Source of the DNA: a virus
Lineage: Duplodnaviria > Heunggongvirae > Uroviricota > Caudoviricetes
IMG/VR virus record: IMGVR_UViG_3300029719_000311
Span: 1 to 31,209 of that record
DNA: 31,209 nt
Direction: 5' to 3' (one strand)
Below the pieces are notes generated by a model, which saw only the letters and a program-made list of their open reading frames with translations, did no database searches and was not told where the DNA came from. The number at the start of each line of letters is the position of its first letter. The first letter of the stretch is position 1. Positions 13,425-31,209 of the stretch are shown one piece after another. The translations under genes and the position numbers were made by a program.

Positions 13425-13488
13425 TTAGCCAGGTAACACAGTGTTATGACAGCCCGCCGGTTCAGGCGGGCTTTTTTGTGGGGGGAAT

Positions 13489-16487: not shown

Positions 16488-16973
16488 TCGTTTTGTGATA
16501 TGCCGCAGACACGTCGTATGCAGAAACGTGCTGCGGCTGGCTGGTGAACTTTCAATAGTGCGAGTATTGAATGATTTCCAGCTGTTATCGATTTTATGTG
16601 TTTTTTGCATGAGGGGATTTCCACCACCTCCCACCGACCATCTAAGACTTTATGCCACTGTCCCTAGGACTGCTATGTACTAGGAGCGGATGTTAAACTC
16701 AGACTCGTTTCAGCTACATTGCGTTTTGAATAATATTCCATCATAATAACTCTTTGAAAAATGTGATCTTTTCATTTATAACACTGATGACTTGCTTATC
16801 TCATTGGGATATCGGAGGAGAATACTTAACTATGACAAGCCCGATTATTATGACACTGGCTATATTATATAGATTGATATTAAAATGTAGGATTAGGTTC
16901 TTGCCAAGGTGTCAAGATTTACAGATAGGTTTAAAACCATATAAATATGTTTTACGGTGAGATACAATACATA

Positions 16974-17000
16974 TTGTAAGGCATAAACGCTTGGTAAAAT
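16974..17000 (+). promoter_or_regulatory. Candidate sigma70 promoter with extended -10 upstream of the large NTPase gene
   Basis: TTGTAA (16974..16979), 15-nt spacer, TGgTAAAAT (16992..17000); 25 bp upstream of the ATG at 17025. Confidence 0.3.
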
Positions 17001-17024
17001 TTTAATTATTGGAAGAAGCTAATC

Positions 17025-20000
17025 ATGGAACCCATATCAATTACAGTGGCAACTTATGTAGCAACTAAACTTATTGATCAATTCATCTCTCAAGAAGGAT
17101 ATGGTTGTATTAAGAAAGCATTATTCCCCCAAAAAAGATATGTGGATAGATTATATCAACTAATTGAAGAGACGGCAATTGAGTTTGAAGAAACATATCC
17201 AGTAGAAAGTGGAGCAATACCATTTTATCATTCCGAACCATTGTTTGAGATGTTGAATGAGCACATCTTTTTTAAAGAGTTCCCTGACAAAGAGATATTA
17301 TTAGACAAGTTCAAAGAATATCCAAGTATCACTCCCCCAACTCAACAACAACTCAGCCTTTTTTATGAGATGTTATCATTAAAAATCAATAATTGTTCGA
17401 AGTTAAAAAAGCTACATATCGAAGAAACGTATAAAGAAAAAATATTCGATATTAATGAAGAGCTCATTCAAGTCAAACTTATTTTACGGTCTATAGATGA
17501 GAAACTAACTTTTCACTTAAGTGATGATTGGTTAAATGAAAAAAATAGTCAAGCAATAGCTGACTTGGGAGGTCGATACACACCCGAACTCAACGTAAAG
17601 CTAGAAATAGCAGAGATATTTGATGGCCTCGGTAGAACTAATGATTTTTCTAAAATATTTTATTCGCATATAGATAGCTTTCTGGTCGCTGGAAAGAAAT
17701 TACATAGTTGCGATGTAATTTCCTCAGAATTATTTGAAATAAACCAGTCCTTAAAAGAAATTTCTGATATATATCAGGAGATTAATTTTTCTAAATTAGA
17801 TGAAATCCCTATAAATAAATTTAATAACTATGTTTCTAGCTGCCAGACAGCTATTGGCGGAGCGGTATCAATATTGTGGGAACTCCGAGAAAAGTCAGAG
17901 CAAGTAGGTGAAACCAAGCATTACAGTGATAAGTATTCATCTACTCTGCGAATGCTTCGGGAATTTGACTATGCGTGCAATGAATTACGTATATTCATTA
18001 ATTCAACAACAGTGAAGTTGGCTAACAACCCATTCTTACTTCTCGAAGGAAAAGCAGGAATTGGTAAGTCTCATTTACTGGCTGATGTGATTAAAAATCG
18101 AATTGCTTCTGGGTATCCTTCACTACTCATACTAGGGCAACAACTTACTTCAGATGAATCTCCATGGTCACAAATCTTCAAGAGATTACAGCTTAAAATC
18201 ACTTCTCGTGAATTCCTAGAAAAACTGAATTTATATGGCAAAAAAACAGGAAAAAGAGTCTTAGTTTTTATTGATGCTATTAATGAAGGTAATGGAAATA
18301 AATTCTGGAATGACAATATTAACAGTTTTGTCGATGAAATCAGATGCTTTGAATGGCTTGGTCTGATAATGTCAGTCAGAACAACATATAGAAATGTAAC
18401 AATTTCACATGAGAATGTTGTGCGAAATAATTTTGAAATTCATGAACATATTGGATTCCAGAACGTTGAGTTGGAAGCGGTTAGTCTATTTTATGATTAT
18501 TACAATATTGAGAGGCCTTCATCTCCTAACCTTAATCCAGAGTTTAAAAATCCTCTATTTCTTAAGTTATTGTGTGAAGGCATTAAGAAAAATGGTTTAA
18601 CCAAAGTGCCTGTTGGATTTAATGGGATTTCAAATATTTTTAACTTTTTAGTTGAAGGGGTAAATAAATCATTAGCATCGCCAAGAAAATATGCATTCGA
18701 TCCCAGTTTTCCTCTTGTTAAAGATGCTCTCAATGAAATCATAAAATTCAAATTAGAGATTGGTCGTAATAGTATTTCACTTAAAGATGCTCACTCAGTG
18801 GTTCAATCTGTAGTTAATGATTATGTTGCTGATAAAACCTTCCTCAGCGCCTTGATTGACGAAGGATTATTGACTAAAGGCATAGTGAGAAATGATGATA
18901 ATTCTACTGAGGAAGTAGTTTATGTGGCTTTTGAAAGGTTTGATGATCATTTAACTGTTAATTTTTTATTAAATGATGTTGAAAATATCGAAAGTGAATT
19001 TAAGCCTGATGGTCGTCTGAAAAAATATTTTCATGATGAATGTGATTTTTATATAAAATCGGGAATAGTAGAGGCGTTGTCTATTCAATTGCCAGAAAGG
19101 TATGAAAAAGAGCTTTATGAATTTCTGCCGGAGTTCAGCAATAATCTTAAATTACTAGAAGCCTTTATTGATAGCTTGATATGGCGCGATATTAAGGCTA
19201 TTGATTTCGAAAAAATTAGACCTTTCATCAATGAACATGTTTTTAAATTTAAAGATAGTTTTGATCATTTCCTCGAGGCAGTGATCTCTATTTCAGGTTT
19301 AGTTGGCCATCCCTTTAATGCTAATTTCTTGCATGATTGGCTAAAAGATTATTCTTTGGCAAATCGAGATTCGTTTTGGACTACAGAACTTAAATATAAA
19401 TATAGTGAAGACTCAGCATTTAGGCATCTAATCGATTGGGCATGGGCCAGAACAGATAAAAGCTTTGTTTCGGATGAGTCAATCGAGCTAGTTGCAACTA
19501 GTTTATGCTGGTTTTTAACTTCTAGTAACCGAGAACTTCGAGATTGCTCAACTAAGGCTTTAGTGAGTTTACTCGAGCCAAGAATTCCTGTATTGAGAAA
19601 AATAATTGATAAGTTTTATGGTGTAAATGATCCTTACGTTTGGGAAAGAATATTTGCAGTTGCATTAGGCTGTACATTGCGAACTGATAATATTAAAGAA
19701 CTAAAATATTTAGCCGAAACTGTTTACCAAAAGGTATTTTGTTCTAAGTATGTGTATCCAAATATATTACTTAGAGATTATGCTAGAGAGATTATTGAAT
19801 TTGCTAATCATCTTGGATTGGAACTTGAAAGCATTGAATTATCCAAGACTAGACCACCCTACAACAGCATTTGGCCTGACAAGATTCCTTCAAAAGAGGA
19901 ACTAGAGTCCCTTTATGATAAAGAACCTTATCGGGAACTCTGGAGCTCTATTATGGAAGATGGTGACTTTTCACGATATACTATTGGAACAAATTATAAT

Positions 20001-21479
20001 CATTCTGATTGGTCTGGTTGCAAGTTTAATGAAACCCCTGTTGACCGTAAGCAAGTTTTTAAAACTTTCAAATGTAAACTAACTGATCAACAAAAAGACT
20101 TGTATGATGCCACAGATCCTTTCATTTATGATGATAAATGCGAAGGAATTAAATTTGGTCGTGTGGTCGGTAGAAAATCACAGGAAGAAATAAAGGCGAG
20201 CAAGAAATTATTTAAGAATTCATTGTCATACGATCTGTTAAGTGAGTTTGAAAATGAAATAGAGCCATACCTGGATCATAATAATAATCTGCTGGAAACT
20301 GATAAACACTTTGATCTTCGACTAGCTCAACAATTTATATTCAATCGTGTTATAGAGCTTGGTTGGGATCCGGAGAAGCATGGTAATTTTGACCAACAAA
20401 TAGGAACTGGACGTGGACGTAGAGAGGCATTCCAAGAACGGATTGGTAAAAAATACCAATGGATTGCTTATTATGAATACATGGCAAGGCTAGCCGATAA
20501 TTTTACTCGTTTTGAAGGTTATGGTGACGAACGAAAGGAAAATCCATACCAAGGGCCATGGGAGCCTTACGTAAGAGATATAGATCCCACTATCTTACTT
20601 AAAGAAACTGGAACGAAAAAAATAAGCAATAAAGAAATGTGGTGGCTTAATGATGAAGTGTTTGATTGGACTTGCTCTAATGAAGACTGGGTTAAAAGTT
20701 CTACTACTATAACTAATTCATATGCTTTTATTGAAGTTAAAGATGATAATGGTGATGAATGGATAGTATTAGAAAGTCATCCATCATGGAAAGAACCAAA
20801 AATTATTGGAAACGATGATTGGGGGCACCCACGAAAAGAGGTTTGGTATCAGATCAGAAGTTATATCGTTAAAGTTGAAGAATTTGAAAATTTTAGATGT
20901 TGGGCAATAGCTCAAGACTTTATGGGCAGGTGGATGCCGGAATGTACTGATAGATACCAATTATTTAATAGGGAGTACTATTGGTCCGAAGCATTTAAGT
21001 CTTTTAAATCAGATTATTATGGTGGATCTGACTGGACTTCGGTAACAGACCGGGAGTCTGGAGCTAAGATAGCTGATGTTAGTGTCACTTCGATTAATTA
21101 TTTGTGGGAAGAGGAGTTCGACAAATCAAAAATAGAAACTTTGAATTTTTTGAAGCCTAGTAACTTAATCTTTGAAAAGATGGGATTAAAAAGTGGGGAA
21201 GTAGAGGGTAGCTTCAATGATGAAAATGGAACTATGGTTTGCTTTGCAGCTGAAGCTGTATATGCTTCAAAGCCGCATCTACTTGTTAAAAAAGAACCAT
21301 TTTTAACAATGTTAAGGGACAATGGTTTTGAAATCGTTTGGACATTATTAGGTGAAAAGGGCGTTATAGGGGGCTCACTCATATCAAGTCATCATTATGG
21401 TCGACAGGAGTTTAGTGGAGCATTTTATTATGAAGACAGTCAGCTAACAGGAAGTCATAAAACTAGCTTTACGAGATAA
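17025..21479 (+). CDS. Large P-loop NTPase with NACHT/STAND-like motifs (1484 aa); candidate antiphage defence protein
   Basis: Walker A GKAGIGKS (18048..18071), Walker B VLVFIDAINEG (18258..18290), downstream IMSVRTT sensor-1-like motif; about 330-aa N-terminal and about 1050-aa C-terminal helical extensions; low GC versus neighbours; located between tfa and attR. Confidence 0.6.
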   Translation: MEPISITVATYVATKLIDQFISQEGYGCIKKALFPQKRYVDRLYQLIEETAIEFEETYPVESGAIPFYHSEPLFEMLNEHIFFKEFPDKEILLDKFKEYPSITPPTQQQLSLFYEMLSLKINNCSKLKKLHIEETYKEKIFDINEELIQVKLILRSIDEKLTFHLSDDWLNEKNSQAIADLGGRYTPELNVKLEIAEIFDGLGRTNDFSKIFYSHIDSFLVAGKKLHSCDVISSELFEINQSLKEISDIYQEINFSKLDEIPINKFNNYVSSCQTAIGGAVSILWELREKSEQVGETKHYSDKYSSTLRMLREFDYACNELRIFINSTTVKLANNPFLLLEGKAGIGKSHLLADVIKNRIASGYPSLLILGQQLTSDESPWSQIFKRLQLKITSREFLEKLNLYGKKTGKRVLVFIDAINEGNGNKFWNDNINSFVDEIRCFEWLGLIMSVRTTYRNVTISHENVVRNNFEIHEHIGFQNVELEAVSLFYDYYNIERPSSPNLNPEFKNPLFLKLLCEGIKKNGLTKVPVGFNGISNIFNFLVEGVNKSLASPRKYAFDPSFPLVKDALNEIIKFKLEIGRNSISLKDAHSVVQSVVNDYVADKTFLSALIDEGLLTKGIVRNDDNSTEEVVYVAFERFDDHLTVNFLLNDVENIESEFKPDGRLKKYFHDECDFYIKSGIVEALSIQLPERYEKELYEFLPEFSNNLKLLEAFIDSLIWRDIKAIDFEKIRPFINEHVFKFKDSFDHFLEAVISISGLVGHPFNANFLHDWLKDYSLANRDSFWTTELKYKYSEDSAFRHLIDWAWARTDKSFVSDESIELVATSLCWFLTSSNRELRDCSTKALVSLLEPRIPVLRKIIDKFYGVNDPYVWERIFAVALGCTLRTDNIKELKYLAETVYQKVFCSKYVYPNILLRDYAREIIEFANHLGLELESIELSKTRPPYNSIWPDKIPSKEELESLYDKEPYRELWSSIMEDGDFSRYTIGTNYNHSDWSGCKFNETPVDRKQVFKTFKCKLTDQQKDLYDATDPFIYDDKCEGIKFGRVVGRKSQEEIKASKKLFKNSLSYDLLSEFENEIEPYLDHNNNLLETDKHFDLRLAQQFIFNRVIELGWDPEKHGNFDQQIGTGRGRREAFQERIGKKYQWIAYYEYMARLADNFTRFEGYGDERKENPYQGPWEPYVRDIDPTILLKETGTKKISNKEMWWLNDEVFDWTCSNEDWVKSSTTITNSYAFIEVKDDNGDEWIVLESHPSWKEPKIIGNDDWGHPRKEVWYQIRSYIVKVEEFENFRCWAIAQDFMGRWMPECTDRYQLFNREYYWSEAFKSFKSDYYGGSDWTSVTDRESGAKIADVSVTSINYLWEEEFDKSKIETLNFLKPSNLIFEKMGLKSGEVEGSFNDENGTMVCFAAEAVYASKPHLLVKKEPFLTMLRDNGFEIVWTLLGEKGVIGGSLISSHHYGRQEFSGAFYYEDSQLTGSHKTSFTR

Positions 21480-21862
21480 AAATGAATCTCAGAGCTGAAT
21501 ATATAAGTAGTATTAGAAACCGGGTTATACTTAAGAAATCAATCTTAAGTGTGGCAGTCGAATGGTAGCTAATATGCTAGCGGCGCTAATGCCTGTTTGT
21601 TGCTCATAACAGGCATTCACTTTAGTTATGGCAGAAAAGTATACATGCTGGGTTGGGAAAGTGTGAAAGAAAGGAAGATTGCTGCGCCGTTTGTCGTCAC
21701 GTTTATCTTCATTGGCTATGCAAGTCGTAATAAAAGGTGGGACAAAACTGAGACACATAAAGCCTCGCAATGGCTTGCAAGGCTTTACATGTTTTGATGT
21801 GGTGGGACGTGTGAGCGCAGTGTTGATGGGGTAATGCTTTGAATTAGAAGCGGATTCTTATA

Positions 21863-21909
21863 ATTCGTAATGCGAAGGTCGTAGGTTCGACTCCTATTAT
21901 CGGCACCAT
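21863..21909. repeat. att core, right copy (attR of element 1 / attL of element 2)
   Basis: 47 bp identical to 1399..1445 (partial thrW 3' end ATTCGTAATGCGAAGGTCGTAGGTTCGACTCCTATTATCGGCACCAT). Confidence 0.9.
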
Positions 21910-22072
21910 CACCTAGTTTTCCCAAGTCAACCCACATCAACAAAATCATTTAAAAACATATATATTACGTTGTTTTCATACGTTTGAGGTCAACCCTTGT
22001 CTCTTGAAATCAACACGCGGTTGGGGGCACAATCAGGGGCATGTTCTGTTCGATCTAGGAAATGTGCCCCCA

Positions 22073-23263
22073 ATGATGCTGAATGCCCGCAAGGTTGAAG
22101 CTGCGAAAGGAAAAGAGAAGAGCTACAAGCTGTTTGATGGAGGTGGCCTATACCTTCAGGTCGAACCTAATGGCTCGCGTTACTGGCGTATGAAATACCG
22201 TTTTGCTGGTAAAGAGAAACGATTGTCCTTTGGTGTTTATCCAACAGTCACACTTGCTGATGCCAGACAAAAACGAGAAGACGCGAAGAAACTACTCGCA
22301 GCAGGTGAAGATCCCGGCGAAGTCAAAAAAGCCAAAAAGCAGGCTTTAAATGCAGCGAGTGAGACACTTAACCCATTCAGAGAAGTGGCGTTAGAGTGGC
22401 ACAAAATGAAATCACCCAAATGGTCTGAGGGCTATGCTTCCGACATCATTGAGGCATTCGAGAAAGACATTTTCCCGCATATTGGGCACAGACCTATAGC
22501 TGATATTCAGCCCCTTGAACTGCTTGAAGTTCTGAGGTTGATAGAAGCTCGAGGCGCTATGGAGAAAGCGAAGAAAGTCCGTCAGCGATGCGGTGAAGTT
22601 TTTCGCTATGCCATCGTAACGGGTAGGGCAATCTACAATCCGGCACCGGATCTTGCCAGTGCGATGCAAGGACATGAAGCAGTCCACTATCCATTCCTCA
22701 AAGCCAACGAACTACCGGAGTTCTTTAATGCCCTTAATTCTTATTCAGGAAGTCCAATTGTATTGTTGGGGGCGCATTTACTTATCCTGACAGGTCTACG
22801 AACTGGAGAACTACGAGCAGGTGAGTGGCGAGAGGTGGATTTTGATAATGCGGTGTGGGAGATCCCAAAAGAACGTATGAAAATGCGTAGGAGCCATATT
22901 GTCCCGTTGTCAAAACAAGCATTATCCCATCTCAAAAGTTTGAAAGAACTAACTGGGAACTACCCGCTGATGTTCCCTGGACGCAACGATCCCAGCAAAT
23001 TTATGAGTGAAGCAAGCATTAATCAGGTGTTTAAACGTATTGGATATGCAGGGCGTGTTACGGGGCATGGTTTCAGGCATACGATGAGTACAATCCTACA
23101 TGAGAAAGGATTTAACAGCGCTTGGATTGAAACCCAGCTTGCTCATTCGGACAAAAACTCTATTCGTGGAATTTATAACCATGCCCAATATCTCGAAGGG
23201 AGAAGAGAAATGATGCAATGGTATGCTAATTATTTATCTGAGCAAATTGGTACTCATAAATGA
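22073..23263 (+). CDS. Tyrosine integrase, P4-type
   Basis: ...KEKSYKLFDGGGLYLQVEPNGSRYWRMKYRFAGKEKRLSFGVYPTVTLADARQKREDAKKLL... N-terminal arm-binding pattern of P4-family integrases; C-terminal ...GHGFRHTMSTILHE... catalytic region; true start probably ATG at 22073/22076 rather than ORF start 22004. Confidence 0.9.
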   Translation: MMLNARKVEAAKGKEKSYKLFDGGGLYLQVEPNGSRYWRMKYRFAGKEKRLSFGVYPTVTLADARQKREDAKKLLAAGEDPGEVKKAKKQALNAASETLNPFREVALEWHKMKSPKWSEGYASDIIEAFEKDIFPHIGHRPIADIQPLELLEVLRLIEARGAMEKAKKVRQRCGEVFRYAIVTGRAIYNPAPDLASAMQGHEAVHYPFLKANELPEFFNALNSYSGSPIVLLGAHLLILTGLRTGELRAGEWREVDFDNAVWEIPKERMKMRRSHIVPLSKQALSHLKSLKELTGNYPLMFPGRNDPSKFMSEASINQVFKRIGYAGRVTGHGFRHTMSTILHEKGFNSAWIETQLAHSDKNSIRGIYNHAQYLEGRREMMQWYANYLSEQIGTHK

Positions 23264-24084
23264 ATATTTTAAAAATTAATAATACTGATTCTCTGCTCAG
23301 AGATTACTACCAGTTGGATGAAGCTTCAGAAAAAATTGGTTGTAGTGAAAAGGATATACTCTGGTTTGCCAGAGAACGAGATGTAGAGCTATGCATGGAA
23401 TTCCATGATGATGAGTATGATGTTTCATGTGGTTTGAAGATTGATGGTCAAATAGATGAGTTCTTATCTAATCTGAAATATTTACCACGAGATAGAAATG
23501 GCAATATTATGTTGTCAGACTTAAGTTCTATAAGAATCCCTGATGAAGATAATTTAATTGATAAAAATGGTTTTATTCGATGCTTCATATCCGGTTTATG
23601 GGCTGTTGATTATGAATATAAAGATCTGTTAGTTAAGCATGAGGGGCAACCGGATTCCTGGCCTATTCATTTTCTACTGGCGGGTACGCCTAATATAAAT
23701 TGTAAGGTAATTCTTTATGTAAATTATGATGAAAAAGAAAATTATTATCTTTTTGAGGTTTTGTGGATTACAAAGGTACAGATTCAAAAATTCATTGATA
23801 TAGTCTTATGCGAACAAAAGCGGATAAAAAACGCCAATAAATATAAATCACAATCTGAGGCGCAAAAACAAAAACATGCTGTTCCTCGAGCTGAAATACT
23901 CATGGCTATTATTTCGCTCTATCATCGTGATATGAGGCTAAGAAGAGAGAGTCCAGCAGCGATAGCTGATTATCTTTTTCAACATGCCAGTGAGTTCTGG
24001 CCTAAGACCGGAGAACCGCCTTTGAGCTATGATACTGTTGTTAGTTTGCTACGTAGTTGCATGAAAAACATTAAGTTTAACTAA
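23260..24084 (+). CDS. Hypothetical low-GC cargo protein (274 aa), translationally coupled to integrase
   Basis: ATGA overlap with int stop; strongly AT-rich relative to int; no recognisable motifs. Confidence 0.5.
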   Translation: MNILKINNTDSLLRDYYQLDEASEKIGCSEKDILWFARERDVELCMEFHDDEYDVSCGLKIDGQIDEFLSNLKYLPRDRNGNIMLSDLSSIRIPDEDNLIDKNGFIRCFISGLWAVDYEYKDLLVKHEGQPDSWPIHFLLAGTPNINCKVILYVNYDEKENYYLFEVLWITKVQIQKFIDIVLCEQKRIKNANKYKSQSEAQKQKHAVPRAEILMAIISLYHRDMRLRRESPAAIADYLFQHASEFWPKTGEPPLSYDTVVSLLRSCMKNIKFN

Positions 24085-24209
24085 ATATTAACAATTGTTG
24101 TGGCTAATGATTTTGAATTTTTTTCATTAGTCACATTTTTCTCATTTATAACCTATGTTTTAATTTTCCGTGTTGAAGCCAATAGACTTAGATAAACGGA
24201 GAATGATGA

Positions 24210-24500
24210 ATGTTATCTAAACATGATAATACTACTTTGCAACGACCTTCAATGGATTCTCTGATCGATATGAAGTTTATTACTTCCGATTGTTTATTAA
24301 GTGATAAATGGATTTATCGATTGATTTCTCTGAATCGCTTTCCAAAACCTATAAAAATAGGTCGGATGTCACGATGGCGCGCTGCTGATTATTATAAGTG
24401 GCGAGATGGGTTTGAAGAAAACTCAGGTCAACAGTTTGAGGGGATGAGAAATAAGGCAAGAGCAATTAATAAAGGGAATAGATTATCACCTACTCCCTAA
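24210..24500 (+). CDS. AlpA-family phage regulatory protein (Vis/excisionase-like)
   Basis: ...LISLNRFPKPIKIGRMSRWRAADYYKWRDGF... fits the AlpA pattern (FPKP.K.G..S.W); GGAGA RBS 8 nt upstream. Confidence 0.55.
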   Translation: MLSKHDNTTLQRPSMDSLIDMKFITSDCLLSDKWIYRLISLNRFPKPIKIGRMSRWRAADYYKWRDGFEENSGQQFEGMRNKARAINKGNRLSPTP

Positions 24501-24706
24501 GCCTTAATTGATAGTTAGTAATATTTAACTGATTAGCCTTTAGGGTCAATCCCGCGTGATTGGAGTTCTTTGCGTAAAATTCTTTTAATCCAAGTTGCCA
24601 ACGCGCTATCTCCATCTTTGCGCATTTCGTTTTCGAGTTGCAACCTAAAATCGTCGGTAAGACGCATTTGGAATGGTGGAGAACGTTTCTCTTGTGGTGT
24701 TGACAT
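24491..24706 (-). CDS. Putative Arc/Mnt-like ribbon-helix-helix regulator (71 aa); not in the supplied ORF track
   Basis: Hand-translated minus-strand ORF MSTPQEKRSPPFQMRLTDDFRLQLENEMRKDGDSALATWIKRILRKEL...; PPFQMRLTDD resembles the Arc N-terminal beta-strand; start codon lies within one of two GGTAATTACC palindromes. Confidence 0.4.
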
Positions 24707-24746
24707 GGTAATTACCCTAGAATATGATGACTACATGGTAATTACC
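24707..24746. promoter_or_regulatory. Two 10-bp palindromes GGTAATTACC spaced 30 bp apart (candidate operators)
   Basis: CATGGTAATTACC repeated at 24704..24716 and 24734..24746, overlapping the RHH gene start. Confidence 0.4.
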
Positions 24747-24837
24747 ATTGTAAGTATAGTTCGCTTGTAAAAGCAATGCCCGATTGTGCGGGAACACAAA
24801 TCGGGCATTTAACCAACCGTTATAAGAGGTAACGAAG

Positions 24838-25014
24838 ATGGCTAAACAGAAGTGTACCTGGTTATTTGCGGCGATCAACCGCAGTCAACGCAATGCCCGT
24901 CCTGTGATGTTAAGGATCACCGCAGATAACGAGCGGTCAGCGCGGCGCAGACTTGCCCCGGACTATGTACTGAGCTTTGCCGGGCGCATTCCCTGCGGAG
25001 GTGAACATGCGTAA
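24838..25014 (+). CDS. Small protein (58 aa), Icd-like position in a P4-like element
   Basis: Hand-translated MAKQKCTWLFAAINRSQRNARPVMLRITADNERSARRRLAPDYVLSFAGRIPCGGEHA; AAGAGG RBS; overlaps the next gene start by 8 nt. Confidence 0.4.
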   Translation: MAKQKCTWLFAAINRSQRNARPVMLRITADNERSARRRLAPDYVLSFAGRIPCGGEHA

Positions 25015-25366
25015 TTATCCGCATCCCGGCGAACGCTGGCAGCATGAACGTGGCTGGACGGTCACGATTATCCGATTAATAGAAGCCTCGCCCTCTGTGG
25101 CGCTGGTTAATCCTGAATTCAGCTGTGAAGTGCTGATACGTCATGACAGCGACAACCAGCTTTCTTCCTGCCCTCTGGCATGGTTTGAACAGCGATATAC
25201 GCGCCTGTTTGATGTACCGCTCTTTAAGCCTGCACCAGCTCCTGCAGGCGGTAGTGGTTCCGGCCCGCTGACACTGCATCCGTCTGTGCTATTTATCCGC
25301 TGGCGGGAGCGTAGCATATGGCGTTCTGCTGAGCCTGATGACGGTCACTATTCAAAGTTTCTCTGA
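25007..25366 (+). CDS. Hypothetical protein (119 aa)
   Basis: ATG preceded by GGAGG at 6-nt spacing; GC-rich; function unknown. Confidence 0.45.
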   Translation: MRNYPHPGERWQHERGWTVTIIRLIEASPSVALVNPEFSCEVLIRHDSDNQLSSCPLAWFEQRYTRLFDVPLFKPAPAPAGGSGSGPLTLHPSVLFIRWRERSIWRSAEPDDGHYSKFL

Positions 25367-25602
25367 CACAATACCGCTGAAAACGGAGTAATCCACGATG
25401 AATATTTCAAACGGGCACAACGGTGCTCAGGGCCACACTTTGCCTGAAAAACACAATACCTGCTGCCCTCCACTGATGGCAAACTCCAGACAACCATTCG
25501 CCCGCCAGAGATGAATCCCCGCAGGCTCTATGTCTTCAACAGCGAGGTGCCGGGTTAAGGCTTTGCGTGAGTCTTATTTATTAAGGGTAACAGGTGAAAC
25601 AG

Positions 25603-25780
25603 GTGGAACAACCGTATTTTACAGGGCTGAACCTGTTCCACCTTCTGAAATAGTGAGGTGGAACAGATGTAACGCCAGCCAATCCGCTGTTCCACCTTGT
25701 TACCCGCGATGTTTCACCGGTGCAGTGTATATAAATGTCTTATAAAACAAAGCTGTAACACATGTTTCACCTGTTCCACC
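25603..25780. repeat. Iteron cluster TGTT(C/T)CACC in both orientations (P4 ori/crr-like)
   Basis: About 8 copies (25603, 25612, 25633, 25657, 25688, 25710, 25763, 25772) flanking an AT-rich core; P4 ori/crr use TGTTCACC octamers bound by the alpha primase. Confidence 0.55.
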
Positions 25781-25868
25781 GCATCAGGGACATAAAGCAG
25801 ACTGAAACAGAGGGCATTTTTATCTGGCTGGCTTTCATAGCCACGTCTGAATAACCGCAAGCGCCCGT

Positions 25869-25924
25869 TGTGCCAGCCACCACACACTGAACACCGATAG
25901 TGTGCTTGTGTCAGCCACGACACA
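25869..25924 (+). promoter_or_regulatory. Candidate Ogr/Delta-activated late promoter (two TGT-N12-ACA dyads)
   Basis: TGTGCCAGCCACCACACA at 25869..25886 and TGTGTCAGCCACGACACA at 25907..25924, 35-90 bp upstream of the sid-like ATG. Confidence 0.4.
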
Positions 25925-25958
25925 ATTGACGTAACGAACCAACCCGACAGGAGAAGTC

Positions 25959-26702
25959 ATGAACAATACCGCAGTAAATAACAACCTTTCCACTTTTCCG
26001 GCTGTAACGCAGCGGGCACTGGAAACCATGAACACAGCCAGAAACGCATGGCTTGAAGCACGTCGTCAGCAGAAAGCGGCAGCGGATAATATTGCGACAA
26101 TCCGCCAGCGTCGCGCTGAAATGGAAGCCACGACGAACACACTGAATGAGGAGTGGCGCACGCTGTTTCGTGAAAGTCAGGGCGTGGTCTCAAAGGAAAT
26201 GAAAAAACTGCGCACGGAAATTGCGCTGGGACGAGAAACGCTTGAGGATTTTGATGAGCTGCTGGCGGCTCAGGAAAGCGAAAATGCACTTTTGCCGCAG
26301 AAAGCTGCAGAATTAGCCGGAAAGTATATCCACGCGCATAACATTCTTGTGGATATTCGCGCAAAACAAATCTGGGAGGATTTTATGCAGTCGCATGGAA
26401 AAGCGCTTATTCAGACGCTGAGCCTGCTTAAATCCACAATGGGCCGGGAAGCCAGTGCCGTTGTGGGTGTGGTGAATTCAGTTAATGACCCGGACACAGT
26501 GCTGAAAGACTTTATTCATAAACATATCACCAGACCGGCTCTGGCTAACGATGCGATGCCTGAGCAGGACCCGGTGTTTAAACTGGCGGGAGTTGCCCCG
26601 GATTATGCGGCGCGTCTGGATTTCAGTAATCAACTCTCTCCGGCAGCTATGCATAAAATTAAGGTTCGTCAGGAACTTGCTGAGAAGGAGAAAGCAGTAT
26701 GA
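25959..26702 (+). CDS. Sid-like capsid size determination protein (247 aa)
   Basis: Helical 247-aa protein (P4 Sid is 244 aa), first gene of the operon ending in an ogr/delta gene; AGGAG RBS. Confidence 0.5.
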   Translation: MNNTAVNNNLSTFPAVTQRALETMNTARNAWLEARRQQKAAADNIATIRQRRAEMEATTNTLNEEWRTLFRESQGVVSKEMKKLRTEIALGRETLEDFDELLAAQESENALLPQKAAELAGKYIHAHNILVDIRAKQIWEDFMQSHGKALIQTLSLLKSTMGREASAVVGVVNSVNDPDTVLKDFIHKHITRPALANDAMPEQDPVFKLAGVAPDYAARLDFSNQLSPAAMHKIKVRQELAEKEKAV

Positions 26703-27250
26703 CGGCCCGAGGCACGCCTGACCAGGCACTTACCAGTTTTCGGAATGCCCGCATTCTGTGGGCCGGACATAATGAGAGCCGAAAAGCCGTTGAACAACAG
26801 ATAACATCTCTCCTCGCTGCCACAGAAAAACCAGCAGATTATGCCCGACAGCTCGAATTACTGCGGGAACGTCTGGATGTGCTGAAATGGCAAATTAACT
26901 GTGCTGCGCGCGAATGCATTTACTCGCAGCATTTACTGATGGAGGCCTGCACAGAAGCCGCTCTCAGCAATTTTATGCAGGCGAATGGGGCAGCCCTGAC
27001 ATCTGCACTGGCTCCGTTCCTGAAGGGGCGCGGAGGGGTTGACGTTGCGTCCCGTATATTACGCAGTGCTCTGGTTCGCCAGCTGGCAATAACACCGCCT
27101 GAAATTGCTGGGGATTATCGTGAGATCCTGGATGAATCCGGTTTGATGCCTGACCCCGGGATGATTCGTGATTGCCAGGGTTCTTACACCCCGGCACAAC
27201 ATCTGCGTTTTCAGCAACGCCTGAATGACATTAACGATATACAGGAGTGA
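26699..27250 (+). CDS. Psu-like polarity suppression protein (183 aa)
   Basis: ATGA coupling to sid-like gene; size and operon position match P4 psu (190 aa). Confidence 0.5.
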   Translation: MTARGTPDQALTSFRNARILWAGHNESRKAVEQQITSLLAATEKPADYARQLELLRERLDVLKWQINCAARECIYSQHLLMEACTEAALSNFMQANGAALTSALAPFLKGRGGVDVASRILRSALVRQLAITPPEIAGDYREILDESGLMPDPGMIRDCQGSYTPAQHLRFQQRLNDINDIQE

Positions 27251-27255
27251 TATTA

Positions 27256-27528
27256 ATGGCACTTAAATGTCCGGAATGCGGTACAGTTGCACACGCCAGA
27301 ACAGCAGCCTATGAAGCTCCGTCAGTTAAACGCTCGTGGTATCAGTGCCAGAATCTGGAATGTTCCTGCACATTTACGGCACTGGAGAGTGTGGATAAGA
27401 TAATCATGAAACCCCGGCGCAATGAACAGGAACCAGACAAATCACAACCCCCGGTAAAACAACAGCAAACGCTCAATCGCTATGGCTCCGCGTCAAAACT
27501 GTCAAGCCGTCAGCAGATTCCTGTCTGA
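27256..27528 (+). CDS. Ogr/Delta-family zinc-finger late transcription activator
   Basis: MALKCPECGTVAHARTAAYEAPSVKRSWYQCQNLECSCTFTALESV matches the Ogr pattern C-P-x-C-x4-HART...Y-x-C-Q-N-x-x-C-S-x-T-F; start at ATG after AGGAG rather than track GTG at 27247. Confidence 0.85.
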   Translation: MALKCPECGTVAHARTAAYEAPSVKRSWYQCQNLECSCTFTALESVDKIIMKPRRNEQEPDKSQPPVKQQQTLNRYGSASKLSSRQQIPV

Positions 27529-27549
27529 TTAGAAAAAAACGCCCACGTA

Positions 27550-27575
27550 ATCCCGGTCGAGTACCGGGATTTTTA
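27550..27575 (+). terminator. Rho-independent terminator after the delta gene
   Basis: ATCCCGGT-CGAGT-ACCGGGAT hairpin followed by TTTT. Confidence 0.6.
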
Positions 27576-27863
27576 ACACCTTTTCCCTGGCTGGCCTGAG
27601 AGCGTATGAGTGCATGTCTATGGCGCATGAAAATGCATGAGTCTTATGCACCCTTTTTGAGGCGAAAACCTTTGTGTGGTGGTATCTGAGACGATTTATG
27701 GCATGCATGAAAACCAGTCTGTTAAGCGAAGCGGGCAGGCGTGCGGGGCTGCCCGCGTAAGGGCGTTGAATGGTATAACTATGGCACGGTTACCGCATGT
27801 TTTGAGCTGTAATCGAAGTTATGAAAATTACTATATAAAGCGGTCGCTGTTGTGGAGATACGA

Positions 27864-27892
27864 TTGCGGGAAGTGATGGAAAGAGCTATAAA
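27864..27892 (+). promoter_or_regulatory. Candidate sigma70 promoter for the RT operon
   Basis: TTGCGG-N17-TATAAA about 30 bp upstream of the RT1 ATG. Confidence 0.3.
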
Positions 27893-27922
27893 AAGTACAG
27901 AGGATAGTTTAATGAGGGTATT

Positions 27923-29200
27923 ATGAACCGTCAGCCGTTTACTTCAGCAGCACTTAAACGAAACTTAAGTGAAAGTGAGAAGGCTTATTATTTTAAAAAA
28001 AATAATGTTGCTGAGTTAGAATCATTAATTAGTGATGCCGTTTTAATTGCTAATGAGAATTTTCGCTCTGGTGTGAGTGTAAAGAAACTAAATATTAAGG
28101 GACGCTGCGTTTACACTGCTTCATGTTTGAAGGAAAAAATAATACTTAGACATTGCAATGCAAATTTAAAATGCCTTGAATCGCTTCGTCCCAAACAACG
28201 AAATACAATAATTAGTGAGCTTAAAATTTATTTGGAAGAAGGTACTCCATTCAAAATATATCGTTTGGATATAAAGTCTTTCTTTGAATCAATTGATTTA
28301 CCGCAGCTTTTTCAGCTCTTACATAACGAAACACGACTGTCTAGACATACAAAAAATTTGCTAGAATGGTATCTTAAATCGTGTGAAAGGCTTCACTCTT
28401 CGAAAGGATTACCTAGAGGGTTAGAAATTAGTCCTATGTTATCAGAATTGTACTTGGCACAATTTGATAATAGTATTCATAGGCATCCAGAAGTATTTTA
28501 TTATTCAAGATTTGTAGATGATATGGTAATCGTTTCAAGTGGTTGTGAATGTGAAGCGTCCTTTATGGAATTTATACAAGATGTATTACCAAAGGGATTG
28601 GCTTTAAATAAAAATAAATTAAAAATATCTCCATGCATACCAAAGAGAAGTAAGGGTTTAAATAAACAGGATAAATTGCTTCATGAATTTGACTTTCTAG
28701 GGTACTCGTTTTCTATAATAGACACACCTTTGAGCAAAGATGGTGAGATTAATAGCTGTTACAGAAAGGTTGTTGTTAATTTATCTAAATCTCGCCTGAA
28801 GAAAATTAAAACAAGAATAGCTAGGTCTTTCTACTCTTATCATATTAATGGTGATTTTAAACTATTGCTAGACAGGATTTCTTTTTTGACTAGTAACAGG
28901 GATTTAAATCGCAAAATAAAATCGTTAAGTTCTTTAGAAAAAAGCAAGATAAGTACAGGTATTTATTACAGTAATGCGAAGTTAGATGTTGACTCCATAT
29001 CCCTAAAAAAATTAGATGACTTTTTGCTATATTGTGTGCAATCTAATACTGGGCGTTTGAATAGTGTTGCAAAAAAACCTTTTAATTTGAAGCAAAAAAA
29101 AGAACTGCTAAGAAATAGTTTTAGAAAAGGCTTTGTGGATAGAGTATATAGAAAGTATAACTTTAAGCGCTATACTGAGATTACAAAAATATGGTTATAA
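27923..29200 (+). CDS. Reverse transcriptase 1 (425 aa), defence-associated RT (UG/Abi-like; DRT3 component by inference)
   Basis: Canonical RT motifs: YRLDIKSFFESID (motif 2), LPRGLEISPMLSELYL (motif 4), FVDD catalytic box at 28511..28522 (motif 5), FDFLGYSF (motif 7); very low GC. Confidence 0.85.
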   Translation: MNRQPFTSAALKRNLSESEKAYYFKKNNVAELESLISDAVLIANENFRSGVSVKKLNIKGRCVYTASCLKEKIILRHCNANLKCLESLRPKQRNTIISELKIYLEEGTPFKIYRLDIKSFFESIDLPQLFQLLHNETRLSRHTKNLLEWYLKSCERLHSSKGLPRGLEISPMLSELYLAQFDNSIHRHPEVFYYSRFVDDMVIVSSGCECEASFMEFIQDVLPKGLALNKNKLKISPCIPKRSKGLNKQDKLLHEFDFLGYSFSIIDTPLSKDGEINSCYRKVVVNLSKSRLKKIKTRIARSFYSYHINGDFKLLLDRISFLTSNRDLNRKIKSLSSLEKSKISTGIYYSNAKLDVDSISLKKLDDFLLYCVQSNTGRLNSVAKKPFNLKQKKELLRNSFRKGFVDRVYRKYNFKRYTEITKIWL

Positions 29201-31209
29201 AGAAAAACATTAAACTTGATAAGAAAGATTATCTCAGGGCTTTACTATGTGATACACTGCCCGGTGATTGTCCAATTATTTTTTCAAATGATGGCTTATA
29301 TATAAACTTAACAGAATATGATAGAGTTTGTAATGATTTGTTACATTTTACTCCGGTTTCTTCTTTCTTAAAAAAAATAGTTAACCCTAATTTAGACTCT
29401 TCTATTAGTGTCGCAGATCGCCACCGAGAAAAGAAGAAACAAAGCTCCCCATTTGGCTATTGTATAGTAAAAGATGCCTTTAGCCAAAGACATCTTTCTT
29501 TAATTCACCCAAGATCTCAAATTAATTATTCGGAATTTTATAAAACATACTCATCCGTTATCACATTAAATACTTTAAAAAGTAATTTTTCTATTCGCTA
29601 CCCACGTAAGGTCGCTAACTCTTTCTTTTTATATGAAAATAATGCTTTGGAAAAATATAAAGGGGAAGATATCGAAACAACAAAGGATGAGTTAATGAGG
29701 AAATATTCATCCTCTTATTTTAGTTATGGCGGTTTCAACAGGATATATAAACTATTTCAAAGTAAGATGTTTATTGAGCTTGAGAAAAGATTCTCGGTGA
29801 TGTGGATGTTAGATGTATCACATTGTTTTGATAGCATATATACGCATTCGGTTTCTTGGGCATTAAAAAATAAATCATATATCAAAAAACATGTTAAACA
29901 CAGCAATCAATTTGGACAAGAATTAGATACACTGATGCAACGTAGCAATAATAATGAAACAAATGGAATACCTATTGGTTCAGAGTTTAGCAGGGTTTTT
30001 GCAGAATTAATATTTCAGCGAATTGATTGCAATATTGAGTCATGCCTTCTTAGTGAGCATGGATGGGTTAATAATAAAGATTATGTTATATTGAGATATG
30101 TAGATGATTTTATTGTTTTTTGTAATGGTGAGTCAAGTGCCGAAGTTATTACAAAAATAATTAATGTGAAGTTAAATGAATATAATCTACAATTAAATGT
30201 AAACAAGCTTAAGAAGTATTCTAGGCCATTTTGCACTAGCAAGACAAGTTTGATTGTCAAAGTTAATGAATTAATTCGCAATTTAGAAATTAAACTGTAT
30301 GAAAAACGTGATAGTGGCTTTACTTTAAATAAAATAAGAAGTAAGCATGATTTAAAGATATATGTAATTAATCATGTCAAGTCTATATGCATTGAAAATC
30401 AAGTGTCTTATTCTGATGTTTCATCATATATAATATCATCTCTTTCCAAAAGATTAATATCAATAATTGATATATTACGAGTTCAAGAAAATGAAGATGA
30501 TGTAGATGTAAAAAAAAGGATTAAGGACTTAATTTTCACAATAACCGATATTATGTTGTTCTTTTTCAGTGTTAACCCAACTGTTTCATCATCTTATAAA
30601 TTATCAAAAACAATGGTTGTTGTTAATAACTATTTGAATGAAATATCTAGTGACTATAGTAGTATTTTTATGACTACGTTAGTGAATGCTGCGGAAAACA
30701 TTAATTTTGGTGAGAATGATAATGGGCTGTTTATTGATGATTTCATTTCAATTGAAAAGGTTAATTTAATCTTGGCTGCTACTTTTTTTGGAGATAATTA
30801 TCTTATAAGTGACAGTTTTTTTCATGGAGTTATACATAAAAAGAAATTGGACTACTTTACTATAATCTCACTGCTATTCTATTTTAGAAACAGAAGATCA
30901 TTCCGAAAATTGAAGTGTATAATAGAGGGTGAAATAAAGGAAATATTAAGTTCTAATATGGATTTGCTGCAATCATCGGAAAAGGCACATTTATTTTTGG
31001 ATGTCATGTCATGTCCATTTGTCTCAATAGAGACAAGGCGTTTTTTATATAGAAAATATCTCAAGAGCTATGAGCCAAAGCTGAACAGAAGTCATCTGGA
31101 GATTGAGAATGATTTGCAATCTCTGCTTCAAATATATTGGTTTGTCAAGTGGGATGAGTTAGATATTGTGAAAATGATTGAGAAAAAAGAATTGAAAGAA
31201 AGCTATTAA
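29191..31209 (+). CDS. Reverse transcriptase 2 (672 aa) with long C-terminal extension (UG/Abi-like; DRT3 component by inference)
   Basis: MLDVSHCFDSIYTHSVSWAL (motif 2), NGIPIGSEFSRVFAELIF (motif 4), YVDD catalytic box at 30097..30108; overlaps RT1 by 10 nt; stop codon is the last triplet of the window. Confidence 0.85.
   Translation: MVIKKNIKLDKKDYLRALLCDTLPGDCPIIFSNDGLYINLTEYDRVCNDLLHFTPVSSFLKKIVNPNLDSSISVADRHREKKKQSSPFGYCIVKDAFSQRHLSLIHPRSQINYSEFYKTYSSVITLNTLKSNFSIRYPRKVANSFFLYENNALEKYKGEDIETTKDELMRKYSSSYFSYGGFNRIYKLFQSKMFIELEKRFSVMWMLDVSHCFDSIYTHSVSWALKNKSYIKKHVKHSNQFGQELDTLMQRSNNNETNGIPIGSEFSRVFAELIFQRIDCNIESCLLSEHGWVNNKDYVILRYVDDFIVFCNGESSAEVITKIINVKLNEYNLQLNVNKLKKYSRPFCTSKTSLIVKVNELIRNLEIKLYEKRDSGFTLNKIRSKHDLKIYVINHVKSICIENQVSYSDVSSYIISSLSKRLISIIDILRVQENEDDVDVKKRIKDLIFTITDIMLFFFSVNPTVSSSYKLSKTMVVVNNYLNEISSDYSSIFMTTLVNAAENINFGENDNGLFIDDFISIEKVNLILAATFFGDNYLISDSFFHGVIHKKKLDYFTIISLLFYFRNRRSFRKLKCIIEGEIKEILSSNMDLLQSSEKAHLFLDVMSCPFVSIETRRFLYRKYLKSYEPKLNRSHLEIENDLQSLLQIYWFVKWDELDIVKMIEKKELKESY

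What the first reader, a model, noticed from the sequence alone, without database searches (positions are those of the whole stretch)
16500..31209. Three low-GC blocks coincide with the candidate cargo genes
The regions 16500..21800 (NTPase), 23260..24200 (274-aa ORF) and 27900..31209 (RT pair) are markedly AT-rich by eye relative to the phage and satellite backbone genes. This indicates independent acquisition of each cargo module into pre-existing elements.
Basis: seen in the sequence. Interest (0 to 1): 0.35.

Follow-up and report, generated by a model that had tools for sequence, protein, structure and literature searches.

The report
AT-rich defence genes in tandem prophages
Three AT-rich stretches are real: two are swappable, already-known anti-phage cassettes (Avs2 and DRT3) carried by a decayed prophage and a decayed P4-like satellite sitting side by side at one tRNA gene, while the third is a conserved, uncharacterised part of the satellite and not acquired cargo.

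Summary
GC falls to 0.34, 0.35 and 0.30 in three blocks, against about 0.46-0.53 around them (2LLR 31-493; largest shuffle value 8.3).

The window is a tandem array at tRNA-Thr(CGU). A 20.4-kb deleted lambdoid prophage (not P2-like) is bounded by a perfect 47-nt att repeat. A P4-like satellite that has lost its primase follows it.

- **Block 1** is EcAvs2, matching PDB 9o4e over its full length (3443 bits). It lies between tfa and the attR arm.
- **Block 3** is a DRT3 reverse-transcriptase pair in the published P4 psu-int defence hotspot.
- **Block 2** is not exchangeable cargo. The 274-aa orphan gene follows this type of integrase in at least five hosts, has co-diverged with it, and stays at GC 0.34-0.36 everywhere.

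For blocks 1 and 3 the GC change-points coincide with the points where related elements lose homology and carry other cassettes. The two carriers have separate histories: Avs2 is in 87 genomes, DRT3 in 22, and the joint junction in 3 of 5,426.

Low GC does not date an acquisition. DRT3 has co-diverged with its satellite (dS 0.26-0.35, within the backbone range), and every cassette in this hotspot has GC 0.30-0.35. The finding is largely ordinary and already explained; the orphan gene is the only open item.

The parts
1..1254 (+). proA, the chromosomal flank
   Evidence: 417-aa ORF, GC 0.543. It is 98-99% identical to annotated proA in VE-T9 and C21.
1369..1444 (+). tRNA-Thr(CGU) (thrW), the integration target
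   Evidence: ARAGORN.
1399..1445 (+). att repeat, copy 1 (attL of the lambdoid element; the 3' end of thrW)
   Evidence: Perfect 47-nt direct repeat with 21863-21909 (D2).
1459..2622 (-). Integrase of the lambdoid element
   Evidence: phrog_10426/phrog_1 integrase, E = 1e-120.
4519..5287 (+). Fourth, milder AT-rich replaceable patch (ECs1072-family gene 4588-5022)
   Evidence: GC 0.399 against 0.476 and 0.436 in the flanks. NCBIfam NF033230. VE-T9 is 98-99% identical on both sides but not here.
5435..6109 (-). CI/LexA-like repressor of the lambdoid element
   Evidence: phrog_4.
10953..12755 (+). Deletion scar: an N-terminal DUF968/HNH part fused to the C-terminal part of tail-tip protein J (J homology starts at 11697)
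   Evidence: phrog_96 matches aa 3-254 and tail fibre/J families match aa 247-599. Homology to J in L001, L003 and L004 begins at 11697. No complete E. coli genome has this junction.
12825..16487 (+). lom (12825-13424), side tail fibre stf (13489-15903) and tfa (15903-16487)
   Evidence: phrog_108 Lom. RefSeq annotation of homologous loci.
16695..21601 (+). Avs2 cassette (AT-rich block 1), bounded by the points where other lambdoid prophages lose and regain homology
   Evidence: Homology breaks at 16543/16690/16694 and 21602/21624/21701. GC change-points at 16546 and 21548. GC 0.341.
17025..21479 (+). avs2 (EcAvs2), a STAND NTPase that senses the phage large terminase
   Evidence: PADLOC Avs2 1752 bits. 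NCBIfam equivalog 1689 bits against a cutoff of 1000. PDB 9o4e_A matched over 1-1484 of 1484, 3443 bits. Walker A GKAGIGKS at aa 346 and Walker B VLVFID at aa 417 (motif starts; one search prints the match starts 342 and 413 with four flanking residues).
21602..21862 (+). attR-proximal arm of the lambdoid element (backbone)
   Evidence: 72-78% identical to the att-proximal arms of other lambdoid prophages. GC 0.433.
21863..21909 (+). att repeat, copy 2 (attR of the lambdoid element and attL of the satellite)
   Evidence: D2. The same 47-mer sits next to the satellite int in L001, L002, L008 and L017.
22004..23263 (+). P4-type tyrosine integrase of the satellite (RefSeq start corresponds to 22073)
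   Evidence: Pfam Arm-DNA-bind_3, Phage_int_M and Phage_integrase. GC 0.458.
23153..24777 (+). AT-rich block 2: the int-linked module of the satellite, not exchangeable cargo
   Evidence: Change-points at 23152 and 24777. Satellites with a different int module start matching at 24778 (H82-84) or 24764 by local BLAST. Present as a unit in 66 genomes.
23260..24084 (+). 274-aa orphan gene; its start overlaps the int stop codon
   Evidence: No Pfam, PADLOC, NCBIfam or PHROG match. AF2 pLDDT 82 with no fold match. Syntenic after int in five lineages. dN/dS 0.12.
24210..24500 (+). AlpA/Vis-like HTH gene (excisionase/regulator)
   Evidence: Pfam Phage_AlpA, E = 4e-4, just below the cutoff. phrog_66 and phrog_2790 excisionase.
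24778..27757 (+). Satellite core with a 3169-bp deletion at 25456-25460. It holds the Icd-like gene, phrog_30862 gene, Sid-position Psu-like gene (25959-26702), Psu (26699-27250), Ogr/Delta (27247-27528) and the conserved cos-proximal stretch 27529-27757.
   Evidence: Deletion mapped against L001, L002 and L009. Pfam Psu and Ogr_Delta. About 820 genomes match only 27529 to ~27757.
27758..31209 (+). DRT3 cassette (AT-rich block 3) in the P4-type psu/delta-int hotspot, cut by the window end before its ncRNA
   Evidence: Homology break at 27756/27757. GC 0.305. Hotspot defined in PMC9122126.
27923..29200 (+). drt3a (UG3-type RT)
   Evidence: PADLOC Drt3a 435 bits. NCBIfam 362 bits against a cutoff of 200. 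FVDD motif at aa 201 (motif start; one search prints match start 197 with four flanking residues). PDB 9z6y_A homologue, 194 bits.
29191..31209 (+). drt3b (UG8-type RT)
   Evidence: PADLOC Drt3b 676 bits. NCBIfam 613 bits against a cutoff of 350. YVDD motif at aa 307 (motif start; one search prints match start 303 with four flanking residues). PDB 9z6y_H homologue, 381 bits.

Best explanation
The window is a tandem array of two integrative elements at tRNA-Thr(CGU) (thrW). Element 1 (1399-21909) is a deletion derivative of a lambdoid prophage. Element 2 (from 21863 to beyond the window end) is a P4-like satellite that has lost its primase.

AT-rich blocks 1 and 3 are self-contained anti-phage cassettes in the variable slots of these elements. 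EcAvs2 lies between tfa and the attR arm of the prophage. DRT3 lies in the satellite's psu/delta-to-att/int hotspot.

Their published mechanisms are as follows:
- Avs2 binds the large terminase of an infecting phage, tetramerises through its STAND ATPase domain, and activates a still uncharacterised N-terminal effector that kills the cell.
- Drt3a, with a downstream ncRNA, makes poly(dT-dG). Drt3b makes protein-templated poly(dC-dA). The resulting dsDNA leads to growth arrest.

Related elements exchange these cassettes, most likely by recombination in the conserved flanks. This step is inferred.

AT-rich block 2 is not a cassette. It is the satellite's conserved int-linked module: an orphan 274-aa gene plus an AlpA-like regulator.

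Low GC is a long-lived property of all these genes and says nothing about when they arrived. Both carriers have decayed while their defence genes stay intact, which is consistent with the host retaining them.
For: **Architecture**
- tRNA-Thr.
- Perfect 47-nt att repeat at 1399-1445 and 21863-21909.
- Lambdoid gene set.
- Intact counterparts of both elements in DETEC-E223.
- Deletions mapped.

**Identities**
- Avs2.
- Drt3a and Drt3b, with catalytic motifs present.

**Mechanisms**
- Avs2: PMC13601566.
- DRT3: PMC13174585.

**Exchangeability**
- GC change-points at 16546, 21548, 24777 and 27984 lie close to the homology breaks at 16543-16694, 21602-21701, 24778 and 27757.
- Alternative cassettes occupy both slots.
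- The P4 hotspot is published.

**Independence of the carriers**
- Genome counts are 87, 66, 22 and 3.
- MLI105 has the satellite without Avs2.
- H8 and ATCC 43886 have the Avs2 phage end without this satellite.
- VE-T9 has the reverse tandem order.

**Block 2 is backbone**
- Conserved synteny, co-divergence and constant GC across hosts.

**Low GC is persistent**
- All cassettes have GC 0.30-0.35.
- DRT3 dS matches the backbone.
Against: - No activity was tested here. The mechanisms are transferred from published homologues. For Avs2 that is the studied protein or a near-identical one: a full-length PDB match at 3443 bits, with percent identity not computed. For DRT3 they are divergent homologues (194 and 381 bits).
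- The DRT3 ncRNA lies outside the window. In identical loci it is supported only by an ACACAC motif 235 nt after the stop codon, and the single-sequence fold is ambiguous.
- Promoter and terminator scans did not exceed chance, so autonomous expression of the cassettes is not shown.
- The canonical P2/P4 cos core was not found with up to 3 mismatches, so the 'cos-proximal' label rests on position and on PMC9122126.
- The recombination route for cassette exchange is inferred.
- In the three Avs2 contexts examined, Avs2 always follows the same tfa. No near-identical phage lacking Avs2 was found; the comparison phages are 77-88% identical in the flanks.
Confidence: 0.85

Rival explanations
1. Each of the three AT-rich blocks is a recent, separate insertion of foreign DNA from low-GC donors into an otherwise E. 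coli-like element, and the low GC is the signature of that recency.
For: - Strong compositional contrast.
- The backbones of both elements share an E. coli-like tetranucleotide signature (r = 0.87), whereas the blocks do not (r = 0.11-0.32).
- The Avs2 block is 99.7-100% identical in the 40 best of the 87 genomes that carry it, which fits recent spread.
Against: - The 274-aa gene is syntenic and has co-diverged with int across genera at constant GC.
- DRT3 dS (0.26-0.35) is like the backbone's, and its alignment to C21 runs unbroken through the hotspot edge.
- All hotspot cassettes share GC 0.30-0.35 whatever the host GC.
- Codon usage is similar across the three blocks (r = 0.71-0.88), so there is no donor-specific signal.
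Confidence: 0.12
2. The whole 16.5-31.2 kb region is one composite defence island that moved as a unit, so the three blocks share a single acquisition history.
For: All three blocks are contiguous at one tRNA locus. The full arrangement recurs in DETEC-E223 at 99.5-100% identity.
Against: - An att repeat separates two elements, each with its own integrase.
- Only 3 genomes have the junction, against 87, 66 and 22 for the separate parts.
- MLI105, H8, ATCC 43886 and VE-T9 show the parts apart or in the reverse order.
Confidence: 0.03
3. The AT-richness is maintained by selection and not by history. One possibility is H-NS-type silencing, or low translation, of potentially toxic defence and regulatory genes. 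On this view the blocks mark a functional class of genes and not horizontal-transfer events.
For: - The orphan gene keeps GC 0.34-0.36 in hosts whose flanks are GC 0.51-0.62, while neighbouring satellite genes drift to 0.59-0.66.
- The unrelated 212-aa gene in the same slot of another satellite is also AT-rich, at 0.307.
- All cassettes have GC 0.30-0.35.
- All genes tested are under purifying selection, with dN/dS 0.07-0.19.
Against: - No direct evidence for silencing or toxicity was obtained.
- This explanation is compatible with the best explanation for blocks 1 and 3 and does not replace it, because their exchangeability is shown independently.
Confidence: 0.35

Closest known systems
P4-like satellite defence hotspot between psu and int (Rousset et al. 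2022, PMC9122126)
   Same: - The satellite has integrase, AlpA-like, Icd-like, Psu, Ogr/Delta and (in intact copies) primase genes.
- A conserved stretch after psu/delta is followed by a variable, AT-rich cassette.
- Many alternative defence systems occupy that position in relatives: a retron, SMEK/AAA/DUF2326, a deaminase and AAA_21-type ATPases.
   Different: - In the prophage form the hotspot lies at the attR end, not directly next to int. The orders agree only in the circular form.
- delta follows psu instead of preceding it.
- The canonical P2/P4 cos core was not found.
- This copy has lost its primase.
- The occupant here is DRT3, which is not named in the main text of that paper.
EcAvs2 (AVAST type 2; PDB 9o4e; PMC13601566)
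   Same: Full-length match to the structurally solved protein (1484 of 1484 residues, 3443 bits), with Walker A and B motifs present.
   Different: Nothing at the protein level. The only addition here is its genomic setting: a moron between tfa and attR of a thrW-integrating lambdoid prophage.
DRT3 (Drt3a/UG3 + Drt3b/UG8 + downstream ncRNA; PMC13174585)
   Same: - Two overlapping RT genes in the a-b order.
- Both exceed the NCBIfam equivalog cutoffs, and both have Y/FxDD motifs.
- In identical loci an ACACAC motif lies 235 nt downstream.
   Different: - Divergent from the solved pair (194 and 381 bits).
- The ncRNA is outside the window, and its structure was not verified.
Lambdoid 'morons' and the b-region accessory slot next to attR
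   Same: An accessory gene of foreign composition sits between the tail-fibre assembly gene and the attachment-site arm. Relatives carry other accessory genes there (ompT/appY, pin/ydfK, SMODS+SLATT).
   Different: No promoter or terminator signal above chance was detected for the cassette, so the classic promoter-gene-terminator anatomy of a moron is not demonstrated.

Membership tests
Avs2 (AVAST type 2) | Full-length match to curated Avs2 models above their cutoff | tested here: met
   NCBIfam NF041813 equivalog, 1689 bits against a cutoff of 1000. PADLOC Avs2, 1752 bits over aa 22-1483.
Avs2 (AVAST type 2) | [quoted passage not shown] | tested here: met
   GKAGIGKS at aa 346 and VLVFID at aa 417 (motif starts; one search prints match starts 342 and 413 with flanking residues). 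The Pfam nSTAND6 hit is weak (18 bits, below the cutoff).
Avs2 (AVAST type 2) | TPR and C-terminal sensor that binds the large terminase; tetramer on activation | not testable with these tools
   Inferred from the full-length match to PDB 9o4e and from PMC13601566.
DRT3 | Adjacent Drt3a (UG3) and Drt3b (UG8) genes, each above its curated cutoff | tested here: met
   NCBIfam Drt3a 362 bits (cutoff 200) and Drt3b 613 bits (cutoff 350). The genes overlap at 29191-29200.
DRT3 | Intact RT active sites (YxDD) in both enzymes | tested here: met
   FVDD at aa 201 of Drt3a and YVDD at aa 307 of Drt3b (motif starts; one search prints match starts 197 and 303 with flanking residues).
DRT3 | Structured ncRNA downstream of drt3b with a conserved ACACAC template loop | tested here: inconclusive
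   The ncRNA lies outside the window, which ends at the drt3b stop codon. In L001 (100% identical over 25456-31209) ACACAC lies 235 nt after the stop. Predicted unpaired probabilities for its six bases are 0.34-0.98, and the fold z-score is -2.1. No Rfam family matched, and no covariation test was possible.
P4-like phage satellite | Core gene set: integrase, AlpA/Vis, primase (alpha), Sid/Psu and Delta | tested here: met
   int, AlpA-like, Psu-like, Psu and Ogr/Delta genes are in the window. The primase is deleted here but present in the otherwise 99-100% identical L001 and L002.
P4-like phage satellite | P2/P4-type cos site next to the hotspot | tested here: not met
   GGCGAGGCGGGGAAAGCAC was not found with up to 3 mismatches. 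Only a G-rich GGCGTGCGGGGCTGCCCGCG at 27738-27757 is present. The helper phage and its cos type are therefore unknown.
P4 psu-int defence hotspot | Conserved flank followed by variable content across related satellites | tested here: met
   About 820 genomes match only 27529 to ~27757. Six different cassettes were seen at this position.
Exchangeable cargo (for the 274-aa ORF) | Presence/absence or replacement among close relatives of the carrier | tested here: not met
   The gene is present in all 66 E. coli genomes that carry this module. It follows int in Citrobacter, Pantoea and Erwinia and in a distant thrW satellite. Only a different int type (tRNA-Leu) has a different, unrelated gene in that slot.
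Lambdoid prophage | int, CI/CII/O-type early genes and J-Lom-Stf-Tfa tail genes, bounded by att repeats | tested here: met
   The element is defective: lysis, head and most tail genes are missing.

The most novel reading that the evidence does not exclude
The int-adjacent 274-aa orphan gene may define an undescribed satellite function that is tied to thrW-type P4-like integrases and held at about 35% GC in every host. It has only 44 cluster representatives among 1.84 billion proteins and a confident model with no fold match. Together with the unrelated AT-rich 212-aa gene in the same slot of tRNA-Leu satellites, it would mark a second accessory slot (int-alpA) in P4-like satellites. The genes there might serve defence, helper interference or control of integration, under selection for AT-richness.
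Probability: 0.25. Interest if true: 0.5.

Novelty: new member of a known kind. Interest (0 to 1): 0.27.

Why it matters
This is mainly a clean worked example of published principles. Anti-phage systems ride in the variable slots of prophages and satellites, and they outlast their decaying carriers.

Two points are of modest use. First, low GC should not be read as evidence of recent or independent acquisition. Here one AT-rich gene is ancient conserved backbone, and one AT-rich cassette has co-diverged with its carrier. Second, the conserved orphan gene next to the integrase is an unstudied, experimentally tractable candidate for a satellite function.

Tried and rejected
- **P2-like phage backbone** (my first guess from the tail-fibre genes): rejected. 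The PHROG hits are lambdoid: CI, CII, O, J, Lom, Stf and Tfa.
- **MLI105 as the source genome:** rejected. It matches only the satellite and has no Avs2. No complete E. coli genome has the DUF968::J scar.
- **Promoter and terminator scans** to show moron anatomy: counts were not above the shuffles.
- **Canonical P2/P4 cos core:** absent.
- **Rfam search of the region from the tfa end (just upstream of avs2) through the satellite to just past the LysR pseudogene downstream of attR (L001 22800-41700):** only a sub-threshold SymR-like hit, and no DRT3 ncRNA family.
- **The 274-aa protein:** no match in Pfam, PADLOC, NCBIfam or PHROGs, searched as a single sequence and across all 16 family members, and no hit in Foldseek against PDB or BFVD. 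The excisionase-type HTH I suspected from the N-terminal sequence found no support. hhalign against the 212-aa gene in the same slot was negative.
- **Codon usage and tetranucleotide signatures** as a test of separate donors: uninformative. The blocks resemble each other in codon usage.

Full report
**1.

The regions between and before them are 0.506, 0.452 and 0.487 (profile). GC3 of the genes involved is 0.25-0.28. For 21 backbone genes the mean is 0.515 (sd 0.071, minimum 0.397), so z = -3.3 to -3.7.

Recursive likelihood segmentation puts change-points at 16546, 21548, 23152, 24777 and 27984, with 2LLR between 31 and 493. The largest 2LLR in 20 shuffles was 8.3.

The coordinates need some adjustment:
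- Block 2 runs to 24777 and includes the AlpA-like gene.
- Block 3 continues beyond the window.
- A fourth, weaker patch at 4519-5287 (GC 0.399) was missed.

**2. What the region is**

proA and tRNA-Thr(CGU) open the window. The last 47 nt of the tRNA region (1399-1445) recur perfectly at 21863-21909.

*Element 1.* Between the two repeats lies a lambdoid element, not a P2-like one. It has an integrase, a CI-like repressor, CII-like and O-like genes, the C-terminus of J, and Lom, Stf and Tfa. Lysis, head and most tail genes are missing. ORF 10953-12755 fuses a DUF968/HNH N-terminus to the end of J, and J homology begins at 11697. No complete E. coli genome carries that scar.

*Element 2.* Directly after the second att copy comes a P4-type integrase, then the 274-aa ORF, an AlpA-like HTH gene, an Icd-like gene, two Psu-family genes and Ogr/Delta. 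This is a P4-like satellite.

*Intact counterparts.* Strain DETEC-E223 has intact versions of both elements in the same order: a complete lambdoid prophage, and a satellite with its TOPRIM/DUF927 primase. Compared with it, the window lacks 3169 bp at 25456-25460.

**3. The genes in the AT-rich blocks**

*Block 1, Avs2.* The 1484-aa ORF is Avs2. It scores 1752 bits against PADLOC and 1689 bits against the NCBIfam equivalog (cutoff 1000), and it matches PDB 9o4e chain A over all 1484 residues. That entry is the EcAvs2 of PMC13601566. EcAvs2 senses large terminases as a C4 tetramer, and its N-terminal effector is still uncharacterised.

*Block 3, DRT3.* The RT pair is Drt3a and Drt3b, both above the curated cutoffs and both with Y/FxDD motifs. 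They are divergent homologues of the solved pair. According to PMC13174585, Drt3a with a ncRNA encoded downstream of drt3b makes poly(dTdG), and Drt3b makes protein-templated poly(dCdA). That ncRNA lies just outside the window. In the identical locus L001, an ACACAC motif lies 235 nt after the stop codon, and a degenerate thrW 3'-end repeat (the satellite attR) lies at 41152-41175. The single-sequence fold is inconclusive, and Rfam has no matching family.

*Block 2, the orphan.* The 274-aa protein matches nothing in Pfam, PADLOC, NCBIfam or PHROGs. Its AlphaFold model is confident (pLDDT 82), but it has no Foldseek match at E <= 0.001 in PDB or BFVD. Only 44 cluster representatives among 1.84 billion proteins match the family profile.

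**4. Cargo or backbone?**

*Avs2 is in a variable slot.*
- Other lambdoid prophages share the sequence just after tfa (to 16543-16694) and the att-proximal arm (from 21602-21701).
- Between those points they hold other genes: SMODS+SLATT, methyltransferase/hydrolase/ompT, or pin/ydfK.
- These breaks bracket the GC change-points at 16546 and 21548.
- The whole 5.4-kb interval from tfa to att occurs in 87 of 5,426 genomes (at least 80% covered). The 40 best of these are 99.7-100% identical.
- In the three contexts inspected, the block follows the same tfa.

*DRT3 is in a variable slot.*
- About 820 genomes match only the ~220-248 nt after delta (to about 27757) and then diverge.
- VE-T9's satellite is 98.8-99.6% identical in its backbone, yet carries SMEK/AAA-ATPase/DUF2326 after position 27757.
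- Other relatives carry a retron St85, an SMC_N/AAA_21 protein, an AAA_23 pair or a deaminase.
- This is the psu-int hotspot described in PMC9122126.

*The 274-aa ORF is not in a variable slot.*
- It follows the integrase, in the same syntenic series, in Citrobacter, Pantoea and Erwinia.
- It also follows the integrase in a more distant thrW satellite that carries a P2-type capsid gene.
- Its amino-acid identity to the E. coli copy (55-58%) parallels that of the integrase (62-63%).
- Satellites with a different integrase (tRNA-Leu) begin to match the window only at 24778, exactly the GC change-point.
- Those satellites have an unrelated 212-aa gene in the same slot, which is also AT-rich (GC 0.307).
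- Block 2 therefore belongs to an int-linked module and is not an inserted cassette.

**5. What low GC does and does not show**

- The orphan gene keeps GC 0.34-0.36 in hosts whose flanks range from 0.51 to 0.62. Neighbouring satellite genes rise to 0.59-0.66.
- Every hotspot cassette examined has GC 0.30-0.35.
- Between the window and the divergent E. coli C21 satellite, dS is 0.35 (drt3a) and 0.26 (drt3b). Backbone genes give 0.20-0.89, and chromosomal proA gives 0.023.
- dN/dS is 0.07-0.19 throughout.
- The nucleotide alignment to C21 runs unbroken across the hotspot edge.

DRT3 has therefore travelled with this satellite lineage for a long time, even though closely related backbones can carry a different cassette. 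AT-richness is a stable property of these genes. It is neither a date stamp nor evidence of independence. Codon usage is similar among the three blocks (r = 0.71-0.88).

**6. The distribution data do show independence**

| Sequence | Genomes (of 5,426) |
|---|---|
| Avs2 block | 87 |
| Block 2 | 66 |
| DRT3 | 22 |
| stf-tfa-avs2-att-int junction | 3 |

MLI105 carries the identical satellite, with the same deletion, next to a different prophage remnant that has no Avs2. H8 and ATCC 43886 carry the Avs2 phage end without this satellite. VE-T9 has the satellite first and the phage second.

**7. Verdict**

The systems and the satellite hotspot are already published, so overall interest is low. What remains is the conserved, persistently AT-rich orphan gene beside the integrase.

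The negative results are listed under "tried and rejected".

Noticed in passing
window 4519-5287: A fourth, milder AT-rich patch (GC 0.399) holds an ECs1072-family phage gene (4588-5022). VE-T9's early region is 98-99% identical on both sides but carries a different 712-bp segment here, so this is another replaceable moron.
   Followed up: partly
window 10953-12755 and 25456-25460: Both carriers are degraded while their defence genes are intact. One scar is a DUF968/HNH::J fusion (J homology from 11697) that is absent from all 5,426 complete E. coli genomes. The other is a 3169-bp deletion that removes the satellite primase and is shared with strain MLI105.
   Followed up: yes
window 23260-24084; L010, L011, L012 and L017: The orphan 274-aa family always lies directly after a thrW-type integrase. 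It stays at GC 0.34-0.36 in hosts whose flanks are GC 0.51-0.62. Neither its function nor the reason for its persistent AT-richness is known.
   Followed up: partly
L009 5346-5984: In a tRNA-Leu P4-like satellite, the slot between int and the HTH gene holds an unrelated 212-aa gene (phrog_30524, function unknown). It is also AT-rich (GC 0.307). This hints at a second accessory slot in P4-like satellites.
   Followed up: partly
window 17025-21479; L001 343-2445: Avs2 senses phage large terminases, yet the intact form of its carrier prophage encodes its own large terminase. How the phage avoids triggering its own sensor on induction was not examined.
   Followed up: no
L001 40759-41176 (just beyond window end): The window stops at the drt3b stop codon. 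That leaves out the required DRT3 ncRNA region (ACACAC at +235) and the satellite attR (GTTCGACTCCTATTATCGCACCAT, one base shorter than the thrW sequence).
   Followed up: partly
window ~24772-24843 (-) (L001 31148-31219): A sub-threshold Rfam SymR-like hit (31.6 bits against a gathering score of 61, E = 0.014) lies right at the 24777/24778 module boundary, upstream of the Icd-like gene. It is probably noise.
   Followed up: no
window 7628-7750: Six 15-nt-spaced iteron-like repeats (TCAAAATCTGAC...) lie inside the O-like replication gene. They are presumably the origin of the lambdoid element.
   Followed up: no
L002 and L015 (VE-T9): The thrW phage of VE-T9 shares the int and early region with element 1 at 98-99% identity, but it has a myovirus-type structural module (sheath, baseplate). 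Element 1's lineage is therefore itself a mosaic of early and late modules.
   Followed up: partly
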